From Syntrophales bacterium (GTDB lineage: Bacteria > Desulfobacterota > Syntrophia > Syntrophales > UBA8958), in the NCBI GenBank assembly GCA_035448805.1, contig DAOTJR010000002.1, positions 18,832 through 82,831 on the forward strand: a stretch of DNA of 64,000 nt, written 5' to 3'. Shown piece after piece: positions 8,503 through 34,480 of this stretch. The number at the start of each line of letters is the position of its first letter. The first letter of the stretch is position 1. Below the pieces are notes generated by a model. That model was not told the origin of the DNA. It saw nothing but the letters and a program-made list of their open reading frames with translations, and ran no database searches. The position numbers and the translations under genes were made by a program.

Positions 8503-8645
8503 TCCTTATTTGGGGTTGTTTCCTCCCCTTTTTCACTGACGAACAATGCGGATATTGTCACCAATGGCGGCAGGGAAAAGACCGGTACCGGAGCACCCCC
8601 TGCTGCTTCTTGATTTTCTCCCCCGCAACGGCATATAACACCGCC

Positions 8646-10688
8646 ATGGGTATTTCACTCGTCCACGCAATGGTCTTTCTGGGCGCCTTCCTCCTGTTTG
8701 GTATGGAACCCCTGACCGGCCGTCTCCTGGTCCCCTATTTCGGCGGGGCCGTGCATATCTGGCTGGTCTGCCTGATGTATTTTCAGTTTCTCCTGCTGCT
8801 GGGTTATCTTTACGCCCATCTCCTGGCGGCACGGGCGGGAAGATGGCATCTGGCCTTGATGCTGGCGCCCCTGCTGAATCTTCCCCTGGAGATGGCCGCA
8901 ACCGCCGTCCCTACCGGCGATGTCTGGCCCCTGCTGGCCACCCTGACCCGGCACATCGCCCTGCCTTTCGTTGTCCTTTCCACGACCGTCGTCGTCGTTC
9001 AGCTTTGGGTCGCCCGGTCCTCCCTGGCACGCCCCTTCAACCCCTATGTGCTCTATGCCACCTCCAACGCCGGCTCGCTGGCGGCCCTGCTGGGTTATCC
9101 CCTCCTCATGGAGCCCTTTCTGGGACTGCGGATGCAGAGTTTGATCTGGAGCGGCGGCTATCTGCTCTATCTCCTCGCCGCCGCCGGTGTCTGGGGATTT
9201 CTCCGCCCCCGGCTGCCGCAACGGCCTCCCCCGGCAGGCGAGACCGTAACGACAAAATGGGGGACAACGCCCGGATTCTCATCCTGGCTGCTTTTGAGCT
9301 TCCTTTCCTCGGCGCTGCTGGTCACGGTGACAAATCTGGTCGCCATGGAGATCGGCTCTTTCCCTCTGGTCTGGGTCCTTCCTCTCGCCCTGTATCTGGC
9401 CAGTTTCATCATCACTTTCCGTGACGGCGAAAAACTATCTCCGCACCTGATGTATTTCTGGCTGGAGATCGTCGCTTTGGGGATCATCCTGTTCTTTATC
9501 CCGGCCAGCCACTGGATCTTTCATCTCCTTTTGCTTTGCGTCCTGTTTTTGGTTTGTGTCATGATCCACGGCGATCTCTACCGGCGGCGCCCCGACTCCG
9601 GACAACTGACGCGGTTCTATTTCGCCGTGGCCCTCGGCGGCTTTCTGGGGGGGGCCTCCATCACCCTGGCGGCACCGTTGCTCTTTCCCGGGATATACGA
9701 ATATCCGCTCATGCTTGCCGTCGTGGCCGTTATCTTCGGGTGGAGGTACCGCAAGCTCATCTTCCGGACCTGGTCGCTCAGATACGCTTCCGTTCTGATT
9801 ATCCGCCTGGGAACCGTCGCCGCCCTCTATCTGGTGCTGATTCTCGTTTCCGGAGCGAATCTGGCCGGGGACAGGAAGGCGGCGTACCGCAATTATTACG
9901 GCGTGAGCCGGATCTACGATTTTCCCGCCGACAAGGACGCCCCGGCCGGGGTACGGATCCTCGTCCACGGTTCTACCATGCACGGCCTCCAGTTTCGGGA
10001 CCGGGATCGGGAAAAGATGCCGACCATGTACTATCATCGCCGGGCCGGCCTGGGTGATGTCTTCGCCGCCCTGCCCCCGCCCCGGCGCATCGCCGTCGTC
10101 GGCCTGGGGGCGGGCACGGCCGGGGCGCTCACCGCTTCCGGAGATACCCTCGATTACTATGAAATCGATCCGGACATGGAAATGATCGCCCGGCACTGGT
10201 TTTCATTTCTGGAGCACACCCCGGCAAAGCTCCGGGTGATCGTCGGCGATGGCCGGCTCAAACTCCAACAGGCAGGGGAAAAATACGATCTCATCCTGAT
10301 CGATGCCTTCAGCGGCGACGGCATCCCCACCCACCTCATCACCCGGGAGGCCCTGGAAATCTACCGGCAGCGCCTCGCCGCCCACGGCCTGCTGGTGCTG
10401 CACCTGACGAACCGTTATTATGATCTCCGTCCCGTCGTCAAGGCCATCCTGGCCGACATGAAACTCCCCGGGGTGATGAAGCTTTCCGCCCTTACGAGCA
10501 GCGACACCTATATGCCTATCGCCACCCTGTATCTCGTCATCTCGCCGGAGAGTGAGGAGTTGAAACCTTTTGTCGAACGGGGATGGATCATGCTGGGGGA
10601 GCAGGACGGGCTCCCGCCCGGGGTGGCCTGGACGGACGACTACATCAACATCCTCGCCCCGGCGGCGGTCAAATGGCGGGCCAAATGA
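8646..10688 (+). CDS. polytopic membrane protein fused to a C-terminal spermidine synthase-like (class I SAM-fold aminopropyltransferase) domain
   Basis: The N-terminal ~400 aa are hydrophobic helices. The C-terminal part has VVGLGAGTAG and YDLILIDAFSGDGIPTHLITREAL, typical of SpeE-like proteins. The ORF track starts at TTG 8610; the first ATG is at 8646. Confidence 0.7.
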   Translation: MGISLVHAMVFLGAFLLFGMEPLTGRLLVPYFGGAVHIWLVCLMYFQFLLLLGYLYAHLLAARAGRWHLALMLAPLLNLPLEMAATAVPTGDVWPLLATLTRHIALPFVVLSTTVVVVQLWVARSSLARPFNPYVLYATSNAGSLAALLGYPLLMEPFLGLRMQSLIWSGGYLLYLLAAAGVWGFLRPRLPQRPPPAGETVTTKWGTTPGFSSWLLLSFLSSALLVTVTNLVAMEIGSFPLVWVLPLALYLASFIITFRDGEKLSPHLMYFWLEIVALGIILFFIPASHWIFHLLLLCVLFLVCVMIHGDLYRRRPDSGQLTRFYFAVALGGFLGGASITLAAPLLFPGIYEYPLMLAVVAVIFGWRYRKLIFRTWSLRYASVLIIRLGTVAALYLVLILVSGANLAGDRKAAYRNYYGVSRIYDFPADKDAPAGVRILVHGSTMHGLQFRDRDREKMPTMYYHRRAGLGDVFAALPPPRRIAVVGLGAGTAGALTASGDTLDYYEIDPDMEMIARHWFSFLEHTPAKLRVIVGDGRLKLQQAGEKYDLILIDAFSGDGIPTHLITREALEIYRQRLAAHGLLVLHLTNRYYDLRPVVKAILADMKLPGVMKLSALTSSDTYMPIATLYLVISPESEELKPFVERGWIMLGEQDGLPPGVAWTDDYINILAPAAVKWRAK

Positions 10689-21353: not shown

Positions 21354-21803
21354 TTACCGGTCTTGAATATTCATACCCATCCGCTTCAAACTGCCTTTGA
21401 AGAGGACGTCCATCCGCTGGTTTTCGAGGATCTTTTCCACAAAACCGATGCCGAAGGAAGGATGATCGATGATATCGCCGCGCTGATAGCGGTCGGTCAT
21501 CCGATAAGGGATGATCTTGGCATCCTGCCCCAGTTCTTCGTACCGCTGCAGCCAGCGCTGTGTCTCCACTGCCTCGGCCTGCCGGCTTTCCTCCGCCGCT
21601 TTCGTACCGGTACGACGGGAGCGGTCACTGGCGGGCGCAGCCTTTCTTTCCCGGGATTTGGCGCCCCGGTATTTGTGTTCCGCTCCGCAGGTCTTACACT
21701 TGACGCGGGCGATGACGCCGCTGACCTCATAAAGGACGATATGGGCCAACGTCAAGCCGCACCGCGTGCAGAGACAGTCAACGTTTTTTCCCACCAAGGA
21801 CAT
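21354..21803 (-). CDS. hypothetical zinc-ribbon protein
   Basis: CTRCG...CKTCG pair, a basic linker, and a C-terminal GDIIDHPSFGIGFVEKILENQRMDVLF SH3/Tudor-like segment. I place the start at MSLVGKN (ATG 21803) behind an AAAGGGG RBS. Confidence 0.5.
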   Translation of the reverse strand: MSLVGKNVDCLCTRCGLTLAHIVLYEVSGVIARVKCKTCGAEHKYRGAKSRERKAAPASDRSRRTGTKAAEESRQAEAVETQRWLQRYEELGQDAKIIPYRMTDRYQRGDIIDHPSFGIGFVEKILENQRMDVLFKGSLKRMGMNIQDR

Positions 21804-22128
21804 GATTGTACCCCTTTCCCAGCCTGGTTTTTTCATTGCCCGCCTGTCACCGGAGGGCAAACCGTTCCCGGCGCTTACCTATTCGGGCTGCCGCCCCCTG
21901 CGACGGTCTGAATCCACAACCCGCGCCCGTTCACACCACCGCTTCTATTGATACGCAAATTCCTGCAATTAGCAAGGAAAAATATCTCTTGCCGCCTCTG
22001 GAATAACTGATGCAAAAGCTCCTGTTTAGTGCTAAGAGGAACGCGGCATCCCGCCGGCGGGGATTATCGACCCTCCCGGAGACCGGGCCGACCGCCGAAT
22101 CGACCACCGAAAGGATTATTTTACCGTT

Positions 22129-23233: not shown

Positions 23234-23566
23234 TCAGGGGCGGGGAGCTGTCGACGTCCGGAGCGGAACGTACACCGGCTTCCCCTGGACGGTAAACCTC
23301 CCGTTCTCCATGGCCCGGACGATTTTCGCCGGGGAAGTCCGCTGATCGTCGAAAACGACCACCACCAGACCCGCACTCGGCATTTCATAACTGATCATCC
23401 CGGCGACATTCTTCAGGACGGACCCCATCCTGGCGCGTTCCCCTCAGGTGTGGCACCCGGCCACCCGGAGCTGCACCGCCCTGGTCGCCGCCCAGACCGT
23501 TTGCCCACTGTCCGGGATCAGCAGCAGGCATATCAGCGGGATGATTATCCCCCCAAGTATTTTCAT
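23234..23566 (-). CDS. candidate selenoprotein: secreted MerP-like heavy-metal-associated (HMA) domain protein with a C-x-x-U motif (in-frame TGA at 23446..23444)
   Basis: ATG 23566 lies behind a GAGGA RBS. The signal peptide MKILGGIIIPLICLLLIPDSGQTVWAA is followed by TRAVQLRVAG-C-H-T-[TGA]-GERARMGSVLKNVAGMISYEMPSAGLVVVVFDDQRTSPAKIVRAMENGRF. The ORF track only lists the part after the TGA (23234..23428). The layout parallels MerP (VWAATQTVTLAVPGMTCAACPITVKKALSKVEGV...VVTFDD). Confidence 0.65.
23414..23432 (-). other. putative bacterial SECIS hairpin
   Basis: The RNA after the UGA has an 11-nt spacer GGGGAACGCGC. It is followed by CAGGAUGG-GGU-CCGUCCUG: 8 bp including one G-U pair, with a G-rich apical loop. 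Confidence 0.55.
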
Positions 23567-23834
23567 CTCCCTTTCCTCAGTTATCTACCGCCTTGCCAGC
23601 GGTCACGGCTGCCCTCCGGACGGCGGCGCCAACCGTCCGCCCGCTGCCCGGCGGCACCCCTGCCGCCACCGCCGGCCGGGTATTTTCTAACGGCGCGGTG
23701 CTTTGCTGTCAAGCGATATTCACTAAGGCACGGCGGCGCCATTATTGCCGGCACATGGACAGACGGAGAAAACTGTGCTAGTCAGAAGGAAAAACATCTG
23801 CCGCGGCGCCGCCGGAACCTGAAAATTAAACTTC

Positions 23835-30017: not shown

Positions 30018-31439
30018 TCAGAAGTCGCCGGGAGGAATCTGAAACAACCCGGCGATGACGACGTCAAAATAGTCCGGCAGGTAGCGGTTCCAAAGCTTTA
30101 CGGGAAGATCTTTCAATTCCCCCCGGGGCGAAGAAAGGGGAAAAAGAAAAAGATAACGCATCAGATATTCCACGTTCTTCGCCAAATGGCCACGATATTG
30201 CTGGCGAAGGCGCTGGTTTATGGTCCGGTCCTCATGCATGCACCGGCCGATTTCACTCTCCAGCATCTCCTGGTAGTCGGTGATAATGATTTCCAGATAG
30301 ACATCCTTCTCTCCGGTCAGAACGAAAGCGGCGAAATCCCGGTCGGCCTGGGCCGGCGGCAGGCCCCGTCCGGTCATGACGGCACGGATGGTTTCCGGCA
30401 GGGGCTCCCGGATCAATTCATCTCGGGGCGGCTCGATGCGGATCACAAGATTGACGGCATTATACAAACCACGGTGATGTTCCTCCTCGACGACGCGGCA
30501 ATGATCGATATTGTTGAGCGCCGCCCTGACCCGACCCGTATCCCCGTCATCCATCAGCACCTTGACCCCGGCTACATCATTGATGATCAGCTCGGCCGGC
30601 CCCTTGATCTCCCGCTGCTGTCGCAGATCCTCGATAAACCGCTGTTCCGCATCGAGAAATTCCGCGAGCATCTCCTCCGGAGTGGAGAGGAGGTATTCCC
30701 GGGAGATACAGAGGCGGGCGGCCCTTTCATCCGCCATAGTTTCGGCGTTCCGTTTGATCGCCGCAAAGATCCAGTCGATGATCCGCCGCGCCCCTTTTTC
30801 CGCCAGACGGCGGATCCGTTTGATCCGCCACGAACCCAGATATTCTTCTCCTCCTTCCCGACGCCGGAAAAACAGCATGGCCTGGCAGGGTGTCTCCCGG
30901 TAGAACCTGCCGGGGTAAGTTTCATAGTCCCGGATCAACTCCTCGATCCGGTGGTTGCGGTACGGCGGTCTGCGGACCATGGCATCCTTGATTTCACCCT
31001 TACGGTAAATACGCTCCCAGCGCAGATCCCCGCCATGTAACTCCCGGAACAGCTTCACGGCAAAATCTTGAAGATACCGGAAAACATACAGCTGGTTGAA
31101 ATGGACCAGACGGGTGATCAACTCTCCGTCGCCTGCCTCCACCACCCCGTACATCCAGCGGCGGATAATGTCCTCCAATTCCCGTCGGTGTAGATAGCTG
31201 TTGATCGTGATCACCAGGGTCCTCCTGCACCGGCGGGCAACGTCGGTGCTGATCCGCGTCCCGGCCCGGAAAATGGGTTTGCCACGCTCATCATCGTTTC
31301 CCTGTCCCCCACCCCACCCCAAAATAAGGTCTCGGCATGGTGAATATGGGGTGTTCACCCGATAGACCGTTCCCCGTTTGCTTTCTATTCTACTCCCCGA
31401 AAAACGATCTTTCAATCGCCAATATCGCCGCAGCGGCAA
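30018..31439 (-). CDS. hypothetical protein with a divergent RelA/SpoT-like (RSH synthetase / nucleotidyltransferase-fold) region
   Basis: 473 aa. IINDVAGVKVLMDD ... VVEEEHHRGLYNAVNLVIRI ... VYLEIIITDYQEMLESEIGRCMHEDR parallels the RSH blocks DIAGLRI, GYRSxHLIV and EIQIRTxxxxxWAxxEH, but several catalytic positions are substituted. The true start is uncertain because no internal ATG occurs before residue ~96. Confidence 0.4.
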   Translation of the reverse strand: MPLRRYWRLKDRFSGSRIESKRGTVYRVNTPYSPCRDLILGWGGGQGNDDERGKPIFRAGTRISTDVARRCRRTLVITINSYLHRRELEDIIRRWMYGVVEAGDGELITRLVHFNQLYVFRYLQDFAVKLFRELHGGDLRWERIYRKGEIKDAMVRRPPYRNHRIEELIRDYETYPGRFYRETPCQAMLFFRRREGGEEYLGSWRIKRIRRLAEKGARRIIDWIFAAIKRNAETMADERAARLCISREYLLSTPEEMLAEFLDAEQRFIEDLRQQREIKGPAELIINDVAGVKVLMDDGDTGRVRAALNNIDHCRVVEEEHHRGLYNAVNLVIRIEPPRDELIREPLPETIRAVMTGRGLPPAQADRDFAAFVLTGEKDVYLEIIITDYQEMLESEIGRCMHEDRTINQRLRQQYRGHLAKNVEYLMRYLFLFPLSSPRGELKDLPVKLWNRYLPDYFDVVIAGLFQIPPGDF

Positions 31440-32719: not shown

Positions 32720-34480
32720 ATGGAAGCACCCATCCCTTTGAAGAACATCCTGTACATGCCGCGGACCTCCACCACCACGGAGATGAACAAGACAGGTTCG
32801 TGGCGGTTTCTCCGTCCCCGCTACGAAGAAAAGACCTCCCCCTGCAGCGCCGCCTGCCCGGCGGGAGAAGATATCGCCCGGATCGAGATGCTCATCACCC
32901 AGGGCGCCTTCAAAGAAGCCTGGGAGACGATCCTCCTGGAAAACCCCCTCCCCGGCGTCTGCGGCCGGGTGTGCTATCATCCCTGCGAAGGAAAATGCAA
33001 CCGCCGGGAGTTCGATGCCGCCGTGGCCGTTCACACCATGGAGCGCTTCCTCGCCGATGCCGCCGCCCGCAACGAGACCAAACCGGCCTTGCCGCGGCAA
33101 CCGGCCACAGGCAGGAAGATAGCCGTTATCGGCTCCGGACCTTCGGGATTGTCCGCCGCCTGGTTTCTGAACCTTCTTGGATACGAAGCGGAGGTCTTCG
33201 AGGCCATGCCCGCCCCGGGCGGGATGCTCCGCTGGGGAATTCCCGCCTACCGTCTCCCCGAAGCGGTTTTGAACCGGGAAATCAACCGGATTGTAGACCA
33301 GGGGGTCAGCATTAAAACCGGGGAGACCGTTTCCGCCGGCCGCTTCGAAGAAATGAGAAAGTCGTATGACGCGATCTTCCTCGGCTGCGGCTACTGGCGC
33401 GACCGGCATCTGAACATCCCCGGCGAGGACGGCCCGGGGGTGGAGGACGGCCTCTCCTTCCTCCGGGAGATCCGCAGCGGCGTAAAACGGAAAGTACCGG
33501 GCCTGGCGGCGGTCATCGGCGGCGGGAACACAGCCATCGACGTGGCCAGAAGCGTTATCAGGCAGGGAGGACAAGCGGTCATAATCTATCGACGCCGTCG
33601 TGATGACATGCCCGCCTTCGCCGAAGAGGTACAGAGCGCCCTGGAGGAAGGGGTTGAACTCCGGGAGCTGCTGGCGCCGGTGGAAATCACCGCCGTCGGT
33701 CCGGACTGTCTGCTGACCCTTCAGCCGATGCAGATCGCCGGCCGGGATCGGGACGGGCGGGGTAAAATCGCCCCCGCCGCCGCCCCCCCGATACAGATTA
33801 CCGTGCAGCGGGTCTTTACGGCCACCGGCGCCGAGGCGGCCGCTTCGTGGTACAATCCCACCGCGGGCGGGGCGCCGGAAACGGGTGTGATATTCAGCCA
33901 CTGCCGCTTACATGCAGACGGACGGGGTGCCCCGGTGGTTTACGGCGGCGATCTCACCACCGCCGACAAGAACGTCACCCAGGCCATCGCCTCGGGGAAA
34001 CAGGCCGCCCTGGCCCTCGACATCTTTTTCCGTCACGGCGCCGACGCCATTGAAGAACGTCTCGCCCCCTGCCGGGTCGGCAACGGCCCCTCCCTCTCCC
34101 TGGAAATTTACATCGGCGGCCGACGTAAGGAGCGCAACGCCCACATCGTCACCTATGGGGAGATCAACACCGATTATTTCCAATACGAGGCCCGGATCGT
34201 CCAACCCCGACTCCTCATTGAAGAGCGGCATGCCTCCTTCGACGAGATCGAGCTGAAAATCTCGGCCCATACCGCCATGCGCGAGGCGGGGCGCTGCTTC
34301 AACTGCGGCATCTGCAACGCCTGTGACAACTGCTATCTATTCTGTCCCGACGTCTCGATCCTCCGGGCCCGGGATATGACGGACCGCCGGATCAATTATG
34401 ACTATTGCAAGGGATGCGGTCTCTGCGTCGTGGAATGCCCCCGGAACGCCATGACCCTGGACGAGGAGGAAACATCATGA
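32720..34480 (+). CDS. GltD/NfnB-like NAD(P)H-dependent FAD oxidoreductase fused to an OFOR delta-type 2x[4Fe-4S] ferredoxin domain
   Basis: The N-terminal Cys clusters are CSAACPAGEDI and CGRVCYHPCEGKCNR. There are two dinucleotide folds, KIAVIGSGPSGLSAAW (followed by APGGMLRWGIPAYRLP) and AAVIGGGNTAIDVA. The C-terminal part reads CFNCGICNACDNCYLFCPD...CKGCGLCVVECP. Its stop overlaps the alpha-subunit start (ATGA). Confidence 0.8.
   Translation: MEAPIPLKNILYMPRTSTTTEMNKTGSWRFLRPRYEEKTSPCSAACPAGEDIARIEMLITQGAFKEAWETILLENPLPGVCGRVCYHPCEGKCNRREFDAAVAVHTMERFLADAAARNETKPALPRQPATGRKIAVIGSGPSGLSAAWFLNLLGYEAEVFEAMPAPGGMLRWGIPAYRLPEAVLNREINRIVDQGVSIKTGETVSAGRFEEMRKSYDAIFLGCGYWRDRHLNIPGEDGPGVEDGLSFLREIRSGVKRKVPGLAAVIGGGNTAIDVARSVIRQGGQAVIIYRRRRDDMPAFAEEVQSALEEGVELRELLAPVEITAVGPDCLLTLQPMQIAGRDRDGRGKIAPAAAPPIQITVQRVFTATGAEAAASWYNPTAGGAPETGVIFSHCRLHADGRGAPVVYGGDLTTADKNVTQAIASGKQAALALDIFFRHGADAIEERLAPCRVGNGPSLSLEIYIGGRRKERNAHIVTYGEINTDYFQYEARIVQPRLLIEERHASFDEIELKISAHTAMREAGRCFNCGICNACDNCYLFCPDVSILRARDMTDRRINYDYCKGCGLCVVECPRNAMTLDEEETS

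What the first reader, a model, noticed from the sequence alone, without database searches (positions are those of the whole stretch)
23234..23566. Secreted MerP-like HMA protein with a C-x-x-U (selenocysteine) metal-binding motif and a hairpin exactly 11 nt after the UGA
The ORF track lists only a 64-aa fragment (23234..23428). The same frame continues upstream through one TGA (23446..23444) to an ATG at 23566 that has a GAGGA RBS and a clear signal peptide. The joined product reads MKILGGIIIPLICLLLIPDSGQTVWAATRAVQLRVAG-C-H-T-U-GERARMGSVLKNVAGM...VVVVFDDQRTSPAKIVRAMENGRF. This has the beta-alpha-beta-beta-alpha-beta layout and spacing of MerP/HMA domains, down to VWAAT and FDD, and the TGA falls at the second metal-ligand position of CxxC. 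Eleven nt after the UGA there is an 8-bp hairpin, CAGGAUGG-GGU-CCGUCCUG, with a G-rich apical loop. That is the geometry described for the minimal E. coli fdhF SECIS. A periplasmic Sec-containing metal chaperone would be an unusual selenoprotein class, and routine annotation would miss it or call it a fragment.
Basis: partly seen in the sequence, partly recalled or inferred. Interest (0 to 1): 0.75.

Follow-up and report, generated by a model that had tools for sequence, protein, structure and literature searches.

The report
Unannotated secreted selenocysteine metal-binding (HMA) protein
A small gene that every public annotation splits in two at a TGA "stop" most likely encodes one exported metal-binding-type protein, in which the TGA is read as selenocysteine; it belongs to a previously uncatalogued family in syntrophic anaerobes, a modest addition to a known kind of protein.

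Summary
On the minus strand, 23566..23234 is a single frame with one TGA (23446..23444). Upstream lie a GAGGA ribosome-binding site and a signal peptide. An 8-bp hairpin with a GGU loop starts 11 nt after the TGA.

Comparative data support selenocysteine (Sec):
- The C-x-x-TGA is present in the DNA of 9 divergent lineages.
- Three relatives carry Cys at that column.
- The 14 codons before the TGA show 4 synonymous and 0 non-synonymous changes between two species.
- The hairpin meets the published bacterial SECIS (Sec insertion sequence) consensus. It is 98.6% paired, with compensatory changes at two pairs. It is disrupted in the one Cys form with DNA.

The heavy-metal-associated (HMA) fold is supported at family level:
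- The family profile hits solved HMA domains at E = 7e-13.
- An AlphaFold model of a Cys-form relative best matches MerP (TM 0.80).
- The window protein alone gets no Pfam HMA hit.

It is not a MerP orthologue. It scores 24.9 bits against a 92.55 cutoff, lacks GMT, and has no mer operon. It also fits no curated selenoprotein model.

Two things were not shown: Sec-decoding genes in this genome (none in the 64 kb) and the ligand.

Verdict: a real, mis-annotated selenoprotein gene, a new member of a known kind (Sec-containing HMA-type proteins are already catalogued). Interest is moderate.

The parts
23574..23578 (-). Shine-Dalgarno-like GAGGA, 7 nt upstream of the ATG
   Evidence: Read directly from the sequence. 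Orthologues have GAGGAG or AGGAGG at similar spacing.
23234..23566 (-). Full selenoprotein ORF. It has 110 sense codons including Sec41, and its stop is at 23236..23234. Public gene calls split it into a 40-aa ORF and a 64-aa ORF.
   Evidence: Translation. The same split is called in all public records. Selection acts in this frame on both sides of the TGA.
23489..23566 (-). Predicted Sec-type signal peptide, residues 1-26: MK, a hydrophobic core, and V-W-A before the predicted cleavage site
   Evidence: Sequence features. Every full-length relative has an equivalent N-terminus ending A-x-A or similar, except P0024. The AlphaFold model of relative P0036 has an N-terminal helix separate from the domain. 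No signal-peptide predictor was available, so this part is inferred.
23444..23455 (-). C38-H-T-U41 motif; the UGA (Sec41) is at 23446..23444
   Evidence: The motif aligns with the C-x-x-C of MerP and CopA. The TGA is conserved in 9 lineages. Cys occupies this column in P0033, P0024 and P0036.
23433..23443 (-). 11-nt spacer between the UGA and the hairpin
   Evidence: The spacing is constant in 8 of 9 Sec forms and is 14 nt (one extra codon) in L020. E. coli fdhF has the same 11-nt spacing.
23414..23432 (-). SECIS-like hairpin: 8-bp stem (23432..23425 pairs with 23421..23414) and apical loop GGU (23424..23422). The ATG formerly taken as the start of the 64-aa fragment (23428..23426) lies in the 5' arm.
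   Evidence: 98.6% of cells are paired across 9 lineages, against 35-47% when the 3' arm is slid. The closing pair occurs as C-G, G-C and A-U, and pair 7 as G-C and A-U. The Cys form keeps only 4 of 8 pairs. The hairpin meets the bSECIS consensus quoted in PMC13188914.
23279..23485 (-). HMA-type beta-alpha-beta-beta-alpha-beta domain, about residues 28-96
   Evidence: The family profile hits PDB HMA domains at E = 7e-13. Pfam HMA is hit by 8 of 12 members. The AlphaFold model of P0036 has pLDDT 86.8. The top Foldseek hit is MerP 1osd, with TM 0.80.

Best explanation
Window 23566..23234 (minus strand) is one gene for a small exported selenoprotein. It has an N-terminal signal peptide followed by a single HMA (ferredoxin-like beta-alpha-beta-beta-alpha-beta) domain. 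The metal-binding loop reads C38-H-T-U41, so selenocysteine replaces the second cysteine of the canonical C-x-x-C.

The UGA at codon 41 is recoded by the bacterial Sec pathway. An 8-bp hairpin with a G-G-U apical loop starts 11 nt after the UGA, inside the coding sequence. It acts as the SECIS element that recruits SelB carrying Sec-tRNA(Sec).

The mature protein most likely sits in the periplasm and binds a thiophilic ligand between the Cys thiolate and the Sec selenolate. The ligand would be a soft metal of the Cu(I)/Hg(II)/Cd(II) type. The protein works as a stand-alone binding or buffering protein, not as part of a mer or cop operon.

Shown:
- one conserved reading frame through the TGA;
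- the Sec/Cys column;
- hairpin covariation;
- the HMA fold at family level.

Inferred:
- actual Sec insertion;
- export;
- metal binding and the identity of the ligand.
For: 1. The TGA is real: five independent assemblies of the species are identical.
2. The C-x-x-TGA is present in DNA of 9 lineages down to about 35% protein identity: window, L001, L015, L017, L018, L019, L020, L021 and L022.
3. Cys forms exist at the same column: P0033 (CSAC), P0024 (CMAC) and P0036 (CFHC). P0036 is 74% identical to the Sec form P0016.
4. Selection acts in this frame on both sides of the TGA. Codons 27-40 show 4 synonymous and 0 non-synonymous changes between the window and L001. The five codons between the TGA and the next ATG change mainly at third positions.
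5. In L015 and L020-L022 the codon at the position of the window's ATG is GTA or ATA. No start codon is therefore available there for a separate downstream gene.
6. The hairpin is 98.6% paired, has two pairs with compensatory double changes partly at synonymous sites, and no shuffle out of 500 reaches its covariation score. The Cys form L016 keeps only 4 of 8 pairs.
7. The hairpin meets all four bSECIS consensus constraints quoted in PMC13188914: a 3-nt loop, an 8-bp stem, G in the first loop positions, 19 nt from the UGA to the loop, and MFE of -17.4 kcal/mol. The spacing equals that of E. coli fdhF.
8. For the HMA fold, the family profile hits CopA HMA domains at E = 7e-13, MerP at 1e-7 and CopZ at 4e-6. 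Pfam HMA is hit by 8 of 12 members. All 12 members hit the MerP model TIGR02052 below its cutoff. The AlphaFold model has pLDDT 86.8 with C-x-x-C at the beta1-alpha1 junction. Foldseek's top hits are MerP 1osd and other HMA domains.
9. The lineage is Smithellaceae/Syntrophobacterales. Its cultured relatives are among the most selenoprotein-rich bacteria: Syntrophus aciditrophicus has 19 and Syntrophobacter fumaroxidans 31 (PMC1794560).
10. TGA is the commonest ordinary stop codon in the window's genes, which excludes a TGA-sense genetic code.
Against: - No selA, selB, selD or tRNA-Sec is present in the 64-kb window or in the fetched loci, and the rest of the genome could not be read.
- No Rfam model matches the hairpin.
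- The single-sequence fold energy is not better than shuffles.
- The window protein itself has no Pfam HMA hit, and its MerP model score is far below the cutoff.
- The gene has no operon partner that would indicate a metal: maf is divergent and manC is convergent.
- A sister clade has lost the N-terminal half, including the C-x-x-U, yet keeps an open remnant ORF and an intact hairpin.
- Only one Cys form had DNA available for the test of hairpin loss in Cys forms.
Confidence: 0.85

Rival explanations
1. The protein is the same selenoprotein, but it is a redox-active thiol/selenol protein and not a metal binder. The C-x-x-U at the N-terminus of helix 1 would cycle between a selenenylsulfide and the reduced form. 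It would act as a periplasmic oxidoreductase or as a sulfur/selenium carrier.
For: Most bacterial C-x-x-U and U-x-x-C selenoproteins are predicted oxidoreductases (PMC2398784; PMC13188914). MerP itself crystallises with an oxidised disulfide (1osd). The canonical GMT of the metal loop is missing and the loop is two residues shorter. No metal transporter or regulator lies next to the gene in the window.
Against: All detectable homology and all structural matches are to metal-binding HMA domains, none to thioredoxin-fold or other redox proteins. The catalogued Sec-containing HMA-type families are annotated as metal-binding or metal-transport proteins. The one Cys-form locus with context sits among metal(loid)-related genes: ArsP, MarR, DUF2703 and a TehA-like gene.
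Confidence: 0.2
2. The TGA is a true stop, giving two separate small genes: a 40-aa signal-peptide micro-ORF and an independent 64-aa protein that starts at ATG 23428.
For: All public gene callers annotate it this way. A GAGGGG lies 11 nt upstream of the ATG. A sister clade retains only the downstream ORF.
Against: - The region between the TGA and the ATG evolves as coding sequence.
- In L015 and L020-L022 the equivalent codon is GTA or ATA, not a start codon. The conserved residues after the TGA would then be untranslated.
- Cys forms read straight through the column.
- A 64-aa piece would lack strand beta1 and the binding loop of the fold.
- The ATG is buried in the hairpin stem.
- The sister-clade remnant diverges five times faster than the neighbouring maf gene, shows no third-position bias, and has a frameshift in L006.
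Confidence: 0.04
3. The gene is a pseudogene: a nonsense mutation (TGC/TGT to TGA) in a formerly C-x-x-C HMA gene.
For: TGC to TGA is a single-base change. The gene family is clearly dispensable in one sister clade, which deleted the N-terminus.
Against: The same TGA is kept in 9 lineages separated by up to about 65% protein divergence. dN/dS is 0 to 0.39 on both sides of it. No additional stops or frameshifts are present. The downstream hairpin covaries.
Confidence: 0.03
4. The UGA is read as a standard amino acid (Trp or Gly, genetic code 4 or 25, or near-cognate read-through) and not as Sec.
For: Several public records translate the codon as W.
Against: TGA is the most frequent terminator of ordinary genes in the window, so the organism uses the standard code. 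The aligned residue in relatives is Cys, never Trp encoded by TGG. The W calls are on very short contigs and fail to translate under table 11.
Confidence: 0.01

Closest known systems
MerP, the periplasmic Hg(II)-binding protein of mer operons (TIGR02052; PDB 1osd, 1afi)
   Same: Both have a signal peptide followed by a single HMA domain of about 70 residues. MerP is the best structural match of the family model (TM 0.80, 2.1 Å) and the best NCBIfam hit for all 12 members. The UGA aligns with MerP's second metal-ligand Cys. Local motifs are shared: VWAAT at the signal-peptide junction and VTFDD in strand beta3.
   Different: It scores 24.9 bits against a cutoff of 92.55. The loop reads A-G-C-H-T-U instead of G-M-T-C-x-x-C, two residues shorter. 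It has Sec in place of Cys. No merR, merT or merA lies nearby, and the gene is monocistronic between maf and manC. It occurs in strictly anaerobic syntrophs.
NF041115 'metal-binding (seleno)protein', U-x-x-U (listed as 'putative mercuric reductase' in PMC13188914)
   Same: It is an HMA-type small protein in which Sec replaces the metal-ligand cysteines. Seven of 12 family members hit the model weakly, best E = 6.7e-9.
   Different: The window protein scores 15.6 bits against a cutoff of 95. It has one Sec (C-x-x-U) and not two. The NF041115 profile begins at strand beta1, so it carries no signal peptide.
Other catalogued Sec-containing metal proteins: the E1-E2 cation ATPase (U-x-x-C), the MerT-like protein (C/S-x-x-U, PF02411), the MerT/CopZ fusion selenoprotein NF045683, and 'Mercuric transport protein MerP' in the GOS selenoproteome
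   Same: In all of them Sec sits at a metal-ligand position of a C-x-x-C-type site in heavy-metal handling proteins.
   Different: Those are membrane proteins or fusions. The GOS 'MerP' is an entry of two marine sequences with no motif or Pfam assignment given, and identity with the present family could not be checked. None is described as a widespread exported C-x-x-U HMA family of Desulfobacterota.
E. coli fdhF SECIS (the minimal 17-nt upper stem-loop)
   Same: Both hairpins lie inside the coding sequence and begin 11 nt after the UGA. Both have a small apical loop starting with G followed by G or U.
   Different: The stem here is a perfect 8-bp stem with a 3-nt loop and no bulged U. There is no sequence similarity, and no Rfam match.

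Membership tests
Bacterial selenoprotein gene (Sec-UGA plus bSECIS) | An in-frame UGA conserved at the same column in homologs | tested here: met
   The TGA was seen in DNA of 9 lineages. About 11 more cluster representatives print W at that column, and about 35 are called only from downstream of the column.
Bacterial selenoprotein gene (Sec-UGA plus bSECIS) | Cys-containing homologs aligned with the UGA | tested here: met
   P0033 has CSAC, P0024 has CMAC and P0036 has CFHC. This meets the criterion of at least two Cys homologs used in PMC1088965.
Bacterial selenoprotein gene (Sec-UGA plus bSECIS) | The bSECIS consensus: 3-9 nt apical loop, 4-16 bp upper stem, G in the first two loop positions, 16-37 nt from the UGA to the loop, and MFE of -7.5 kcal/mol or lower (PMC13188914) | tested here: met
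   The loop is GGU (3 nt), the stem is 8 bp, the UGA-to-loop distance is 19 nt, and MFE is -17.4 kcal/mol. All 9 Sec forms comply, the weakest being L015 at -7.7. The base rate of compliance for random TGAs in this window is 2.9%.
Bacterial selenoprotein gene (Sec-UGA plus bSECIS) | A stem supported by covariation and relaxed in Cys forms | tested here: met
   98.6% of cells are paired and two pairs carry double changes; slid controls give 35-47%. The Cys form L016 keeps 4 of 8 pairs. This rests on a single Cys form.
Bacterial selenoprotein gene (Sec-UGA plus bSECIS) | selA, selB, selC and selD present in the same genome | not testable with these tools
The lineage-level prior is high (PMC1794560).
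Bacterial selenoprotein gene (Sec-UGA plus bSECIS) | Selenium demonstrably incorporated (75Se labelling or mass spectrometry) | not testable with these tools
   This needs an experiment.
HMA domain (Pfam PF00403) | The window protein scores above the Pfam gathering threshold | tested here: not met
   There is no HMA hit even at E up to 10, with Cys substituted for Sec.
HMA domain (Pfam PF00403) | Homology to HMA domains at family (profile) level | tested here: met
   The profile of 12 members hits CopA HMA domains at 7e-13, MerP at 1e-7 and CopZ at 4e-6. Pfam HMA is hit by 8 of 12 members, best 1.3e-8. P0030 and P0040-46 carry precomputed PF00403 hits.
HMA domain (Pfam PF00403) | A beta-alpha-beta-beta-alpha-beta fold with C-x-x-C at the beta1-alpha1 junction | tested here: met
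   The AlphaFold model of the Cys-form relative P0036 has pLDDT 86.8. All of the top 31 Foldseek PDB hits are HMA domains. The window protein itself was not modelled.
MerP (TIGR02052 equivalog) | A score at or above the curated cutoff of 92.55 bits | tested here: not met
   The window protein scores 24.9 bits and L001 scores 27.0 bits.
MerP (TIGR02052 equivalog) | The G-M-T-C-x-x-C metal loop | tested here: not met
   The loop is A-G-C-H-T-U. M and T are absent and the loop is 2 residues shorter.
MerP (TIGR02052 equivalog) | Location in a mer operon with merR, merT and merA | tested here: not met
   The neighbours are maf (divergent) and manC (convergent). No mer genes lie within 10 kb on either side in the window, L001 or L019.
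MerP (TIGR02052 equivalog) | An N-terminal signal peptide for export to the periplasm | tested here: inconclusive
   Sequence features fit: a basic N-terminus, a hydrophobic core of about 15 residues, and V-W-A at positions -3 to -1, conserved in type across the family. No dedicated predictor was available.
NF041115 UxxU metal-binding selenoprotein | A score at or above the 95-bit cutoff, and a U-x-x-U motif | tested here: not met
   It scores 15.6 bits and the motif is C-x-x-U.

The most novel reading that the evidence does not exclude
This is the founding example of a lineage-wide, so far uncatalogued family of exported Cys-Sec HMA proteins in syntrophic Desulfobacterota (Smithella, Syntrophus and Syntrophobacterales types). 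The proteins would act as very high-affinity periplasmic binders or buffers for thiophilic trace or toxic metals in sulfidic, metal-limited habitats. The selenolate would be the feature that lets them compete with sulfide. This would be the first exported selenoprotein metallochaperone with a defined SECIS.
Probability: 0.3. Interest if true: 0.6.

Novelty: new member of a known kind. Interest (0 to 1): 0.45.

Why it matters
Practical value:
- The gene is wrongly annotated in every public record examined. It appears as a 40-aa plus 64-aa pair, as an N-terminally truncated "hypothetical protein", or with a spurious Trp at the Sec position.
- The family is therefore invisible to protein-based surveys of selenoproteomes and metalloproteomes.
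- A profile built from alignment A5, together with the hairpin, would recover it.

Biological value:
- It adds an exported, single-domain C-x-x-U HMA protein to the short list of selenoproteins in which Sec is a probable metal ligand and not a redox catalyst.
- It occurs in syntrophic anaerobes that dominate methanogenic digesters and depend heavily on trace metals and selenium.
- It gives a small, tractable model of about 85 mature residues with natural Sec and Cys variants. This model can be used to ask what a selenolate ligand contributes to metal affinity or selectivity.

It does not change any concept of Sec decoding.

Tried and rejected
- Rfam, at gathering thresholds on the whole window and permissively on 23300-23600, gave no SECIS or other relevant model. 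Bacterial SECIS elements are poorly covered there, so this is a weak negative.
- Single-sequence Pfam and PDB searches were non-significant. Only the family profile resolved the fold.
- The first genome scan with the single protein found nothing. The alignment-based scans found only the N-terminally deleted sister clade.
I used the C-terminal fragments for the search and a natural Cys form for the model.
- P0004, a 3084-aa protein with 24 short matches to the PVYVPL-type tail, was treated as a repeat or low-complexity artefact.
- The 46-aa plus 72-aa pair in L016 looked like a second split selenoprotein, but it is TAG-split and unrelated.
- A scan of the window for other TGA-interrupted coding ORFs, as evidence of Sec use in this organism, found none convincing.
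- Pfam on 20 large window ORFs found no SelA, SelB or SelD.
- tRNA-Sec was not found in the window or in 8 loci.
- The promoter and terminator scan found nothing.
- A suspected gene gap at 34.4-35.6 kb is an intact POR alpha subunit.
- The literature search for a prior description of a Sec-containing exported HMA/CopZ/MerP family found only the catalogue entries cited above.
Full report
**Observation.** On the minus strand an ORF starts at ATG 23566, with GAGGA 7 nt upstream, and runs to the stop at 23236..23234. It has a single in-frame TGA at 23446..23444. The product reads MKILGGIIIPLICLLLIPDSGQTVWAATRAVQLRVAGCHT*GERARMGSVLKN...GKPVYVPLRTSTAPRP. Eleven nt after the TGA lies CAGGAUGG-GGU-CCGUCCUG (23432..23414), an 8-bp hairpin with one U.G pair. 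Five independent assemblies of the same species (an NCBI MAG, two JGI assemblies and two ENA assemblies) are identical here, so the TGA is not a sequencing error.

**How much the hairpin alone is worth.**
- The fold energy of the region is no better than shuffles (z = -0.19).
- No Rfam model matches it.
- 2.9% of all TGA trinucleotides in this GC-rich window are followed by a hairpin that satisfies the bacterial SECIS spacing and loop-G rule.
- The exact geometry occurs twice in 1950 TGAs, and the other case is non-coding antisense.

The case therefore has to rest on comparison with relatives.

**Relatives.**
- A word-indexed search found only two other clusters, both called as C-terminal fragments.
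- Their contigs show the same arrangement. L001-L005 (a second species, 80% identity) have a 40-aa ORF, a TGA, and then the fragment...AVWAATRAVQLRVAGCHT*GDRTRMGS....
- An exhaustive HMMER search with the fragment profile and a second search with a full-length family alignment raised the family to more than 60 cluster representatives.
- I read DNA for nine lineages: window, L001, L015, L017, L018, L019, L020, L021 and L022. Every one has a signal-peptide-like N-terminus, then [PA]-[GA]-C-x-x-TGA, in frame with the conserved C-terminal part.
- Several public records print W at this column. Their DNA shows TGA, and they fail to translate under table 11, so the W is a code-4-type calling artefact.
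- Three relatives have Cys at the column: P0033 (CSAC), P0024 (CMAC) and P0036 (CFHC). P0036 is 74% identical to the Sec form P0016.

**Selection.**
- Between the window and L001, the 14 codons just upstream of the TGA (ATRAVQLRVAGCHT) carry 4 synonymous and 0 non-synonymous changes.
- The five codons between the TGA and the next ATG change at codon positions [1,0,3].
- The C-terminal part has dN/dS of 0.37.
- In L015 and L020-L022 the codon at the place of the window's ATG 23428 is GTA or ATA, so a separate downstream gene has no start codon there.
- TGA is the commonest ordinary stop in the window, which excludes a TGA-sense genetic code.

**Hairpin.**
- All nine Sec forms have an 8-bp stem. 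It starts 11 nt after the UGA, or 14 nt in L020, which has one extra codon.
- The apical loops are GGU, GGG, GGA or GUU.
- On the alignment, 98.6% of cells are paired, against 35-47% when the 3' arm is slid.
- The closing pair occurs as C-G (5 lineages), G-C (3) and A-U (1), with both partners at third codon positions. Pair 7 occurs as G-C (5) and A-U (4). No shuffle out of 500 reaches the covariation score.
- The one Cys form with DNA (L016) keeps only 4 of 8 pairs at the same place.
- The element satisfies the consensus quoted in PMC13188914: a 3-9 nt loop, a 4-16 bp stem, G in the first two loop positions, 16-37 nt from the UGA to the loop (here 19), and MFE of -7.5 kcal/mol or lower (here -17.4).
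- The 11-nt spacing equals that of E. coli fdhF. There, TGA-CACGGCCCATC precedes the 17-nt upper stem-loop. I verified this 41-mer as 100% identical in the fdhF gene of 5,419 genomes. The minimal SECIS is quoted in PMC10945757.

**Fold.**
- The window protein alone gives no Pfam HMA hit. Its NCBIfam hits are weak: MerP TIGR02052 at E = 2e-5 (24.9 bits against a cutoff of 92.55) and NF041115 at E = 0.013.
- The family profile hits solved HMA domains strongly: CopA at 7e-13, MerP at 1e-7 and CopZ at 4e-6.
- Eight of 12 members hit Pfam HMA, and all 12 hit the MerP model below its cutoff.
- An AlphaFold model of the Cys form P0036, built with the family alignment, has pLDDT 86.8. It shows a signal helix followed by beta-alpha-beta-beta-alpha-beta, with C-x-x-C at the beta1-alpha1 junction.
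- Foldseek's best PDB match is MerP 1osd (TM 0.80 normalised to the target, 2.1 Å), followed only by HMA domains.
- In the sequence alignments the UGA aligns with the second metal-ligand Cys.

**Context and organism.**
- The gene is monocistronic. It is divergent from maf (followed by yggS, an MBL-fold gene, purC and dnaJ) and convergent with manC.
- L019 keeps this synteny. L001 and L018 have other convergent neighbours.
- No mer, cop or transporter partner is present.
- The Cys form P0033 lies among ArsP, MarR, DUF2703, rhodanese and TehA-like genes.
- The window's ATP synthase beta subunit clusters at 90% identity or more with MAGs named Syntrophobacterales or Smithellaceae bacterium.
- Related cultured syntrophs are very rich in selenoproteins (PMC1794560).
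- No Sec-machinery gene or tRNA-Sec lies in the window or the loci. This defining feature remains untested.

**Sister clade.**
- L006, L012 (a Syntrophobacterales MAG) and L013/L014 have lost the signal peptide and the C-H-T-UGA. Only 73 nt separate the maf start from ATG TGG GAA CGG.
- The remnant ORF diverges by 8.6-9.1%, against 1.7% in adjacent maf coding sequence.
- The remnant shows no third-position bias and has a frameshifted 3' end in L006. Its dN/dS is 0.47-0.79.
- It therefore behaves as a decaying remnant, which argues against the C-terminal piece being a gene in its own right.
- The former SECIS stem is still fully paired there, with a G-C to G.U to A-U series of changes. This remains unexplained.

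**Comparison with known families.**
- The element works like a standard bacterial SECIS, and the protein is an HMA domain.
- It is not a MerP orthologue: the score, the GMT motif and the operon context all fail.
- It is not a member of NF041115 (U-x-x-U).
- Sec-containing HMA-type or metal-handling proteins are already catalogued. These are NF041115, the MerT/CopZ fusion selenoprotein NF045683, the U-x-x-C P-type ATPase, a MerT-like protein, and a two-sequence 'MerP' entry in the GOS table.
- I found no description of this exported C-x-x-U family in the 2022 and 2026 catalogues, in the main texts of BSepDB or deep-Sep, or in NCBIfam release 20.

**Verdict.**
- This is a genuine, systematically mis-annotated selenoprotein gene, a new member of a known kind.
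- Confidence is about 0.85 that the UGA encodes Sec in a single exported HMA protein.
- Confidence is about 0.5-0.6 that the Cys-Sec site binds a soft metal and does not act in redox chemistry.
- The ligand is unknown.

Noticed in passing
L006:330-620; L012:9920-10210; L013:1245-1530; L014:2095-2380: A sister clade (Syntrophobacterales MAG Gw_SlDig_bin_168 and digester contigs) has deleted the signal peptide and the C-H-T-UGA of this gene. The remnant ORF diverges five times faster than the adjacent maf gene and has no third-position bias. Even so, the former SECIS hairpin still pairs 8 of 8, with a G-C to G.U to A-U series of changes.
   Followed up: yes
L015:224-520; L020:538-825; L021:240-503; L022:132-656 (proteins P0016, P0030, P0010, P0022; also P0026 and P0037-P0046): Public metagenome gene calls print Trp (W) at the Sec column. 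The DNA has TGA, so these are code-4-style calls on short contigs. Such 'C-x-x-W' entries may hide other selenoproteins in protein catalogues.
   Followed up: partly
window 23320..23350 (minus strand): A 31-nt stretch, GACGATCAGCGGACTTCCCCGGCGAAAATCG (codons DDQRTSPAKI), has no synonymous change between the window, L001, L006 and L012, although dS elsewhere in the gene is 0.3-0.75. More distant relatives do differ. It could reflect an RNA-level constraint, codon bias or chance.
   Followed up: partly
proteins P0047-P0061 (no DNA fetched except L017): The Syntrophus/Smithella-type subgroup carries a long Pro/Ser/Gln-rich C-terminal extension that ends in a conserved ...QELPLYxTSPDSSGTMSR motif. 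The window protein lacks this tail. Its function is unknown.
   Followed up: no
L016:1-8534: The Cys-form homolog P0033 lies among two ArsP-type permeases, two MarR regulators, DUF2703, a rhodanese and a SLAC1/TehA-like transporter. This is the only member seen in a metal(loid) or sulfur-stress neighbourhood.
   Followed up: partly
L016:2576-2944: A 46-aa plus 72-aa ORF pair in one frame is split by a TAG, not a TGA. It is unrelated to the HMA family and may be a pseudogene.
   Followed up: partly
window 33975..33977 (minus strand): This is the only other TGA in the window followed by the exact 11-nt, 8-bp, G-first 3-nt-loop geometry. It is antisense to the 32711..34480 gene and is not in a coding frame, so it is a chance match that illustrates the base rate.
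   Followed up: yes
window 8610..10688 (+), 30018..31439 (-), 21354..21860 (-): Three ORFs (692, 473 and 168 aa) have coding-like codon-position GC content but no Pfam hit at E = 1e-5 or better.
   Followed up: no
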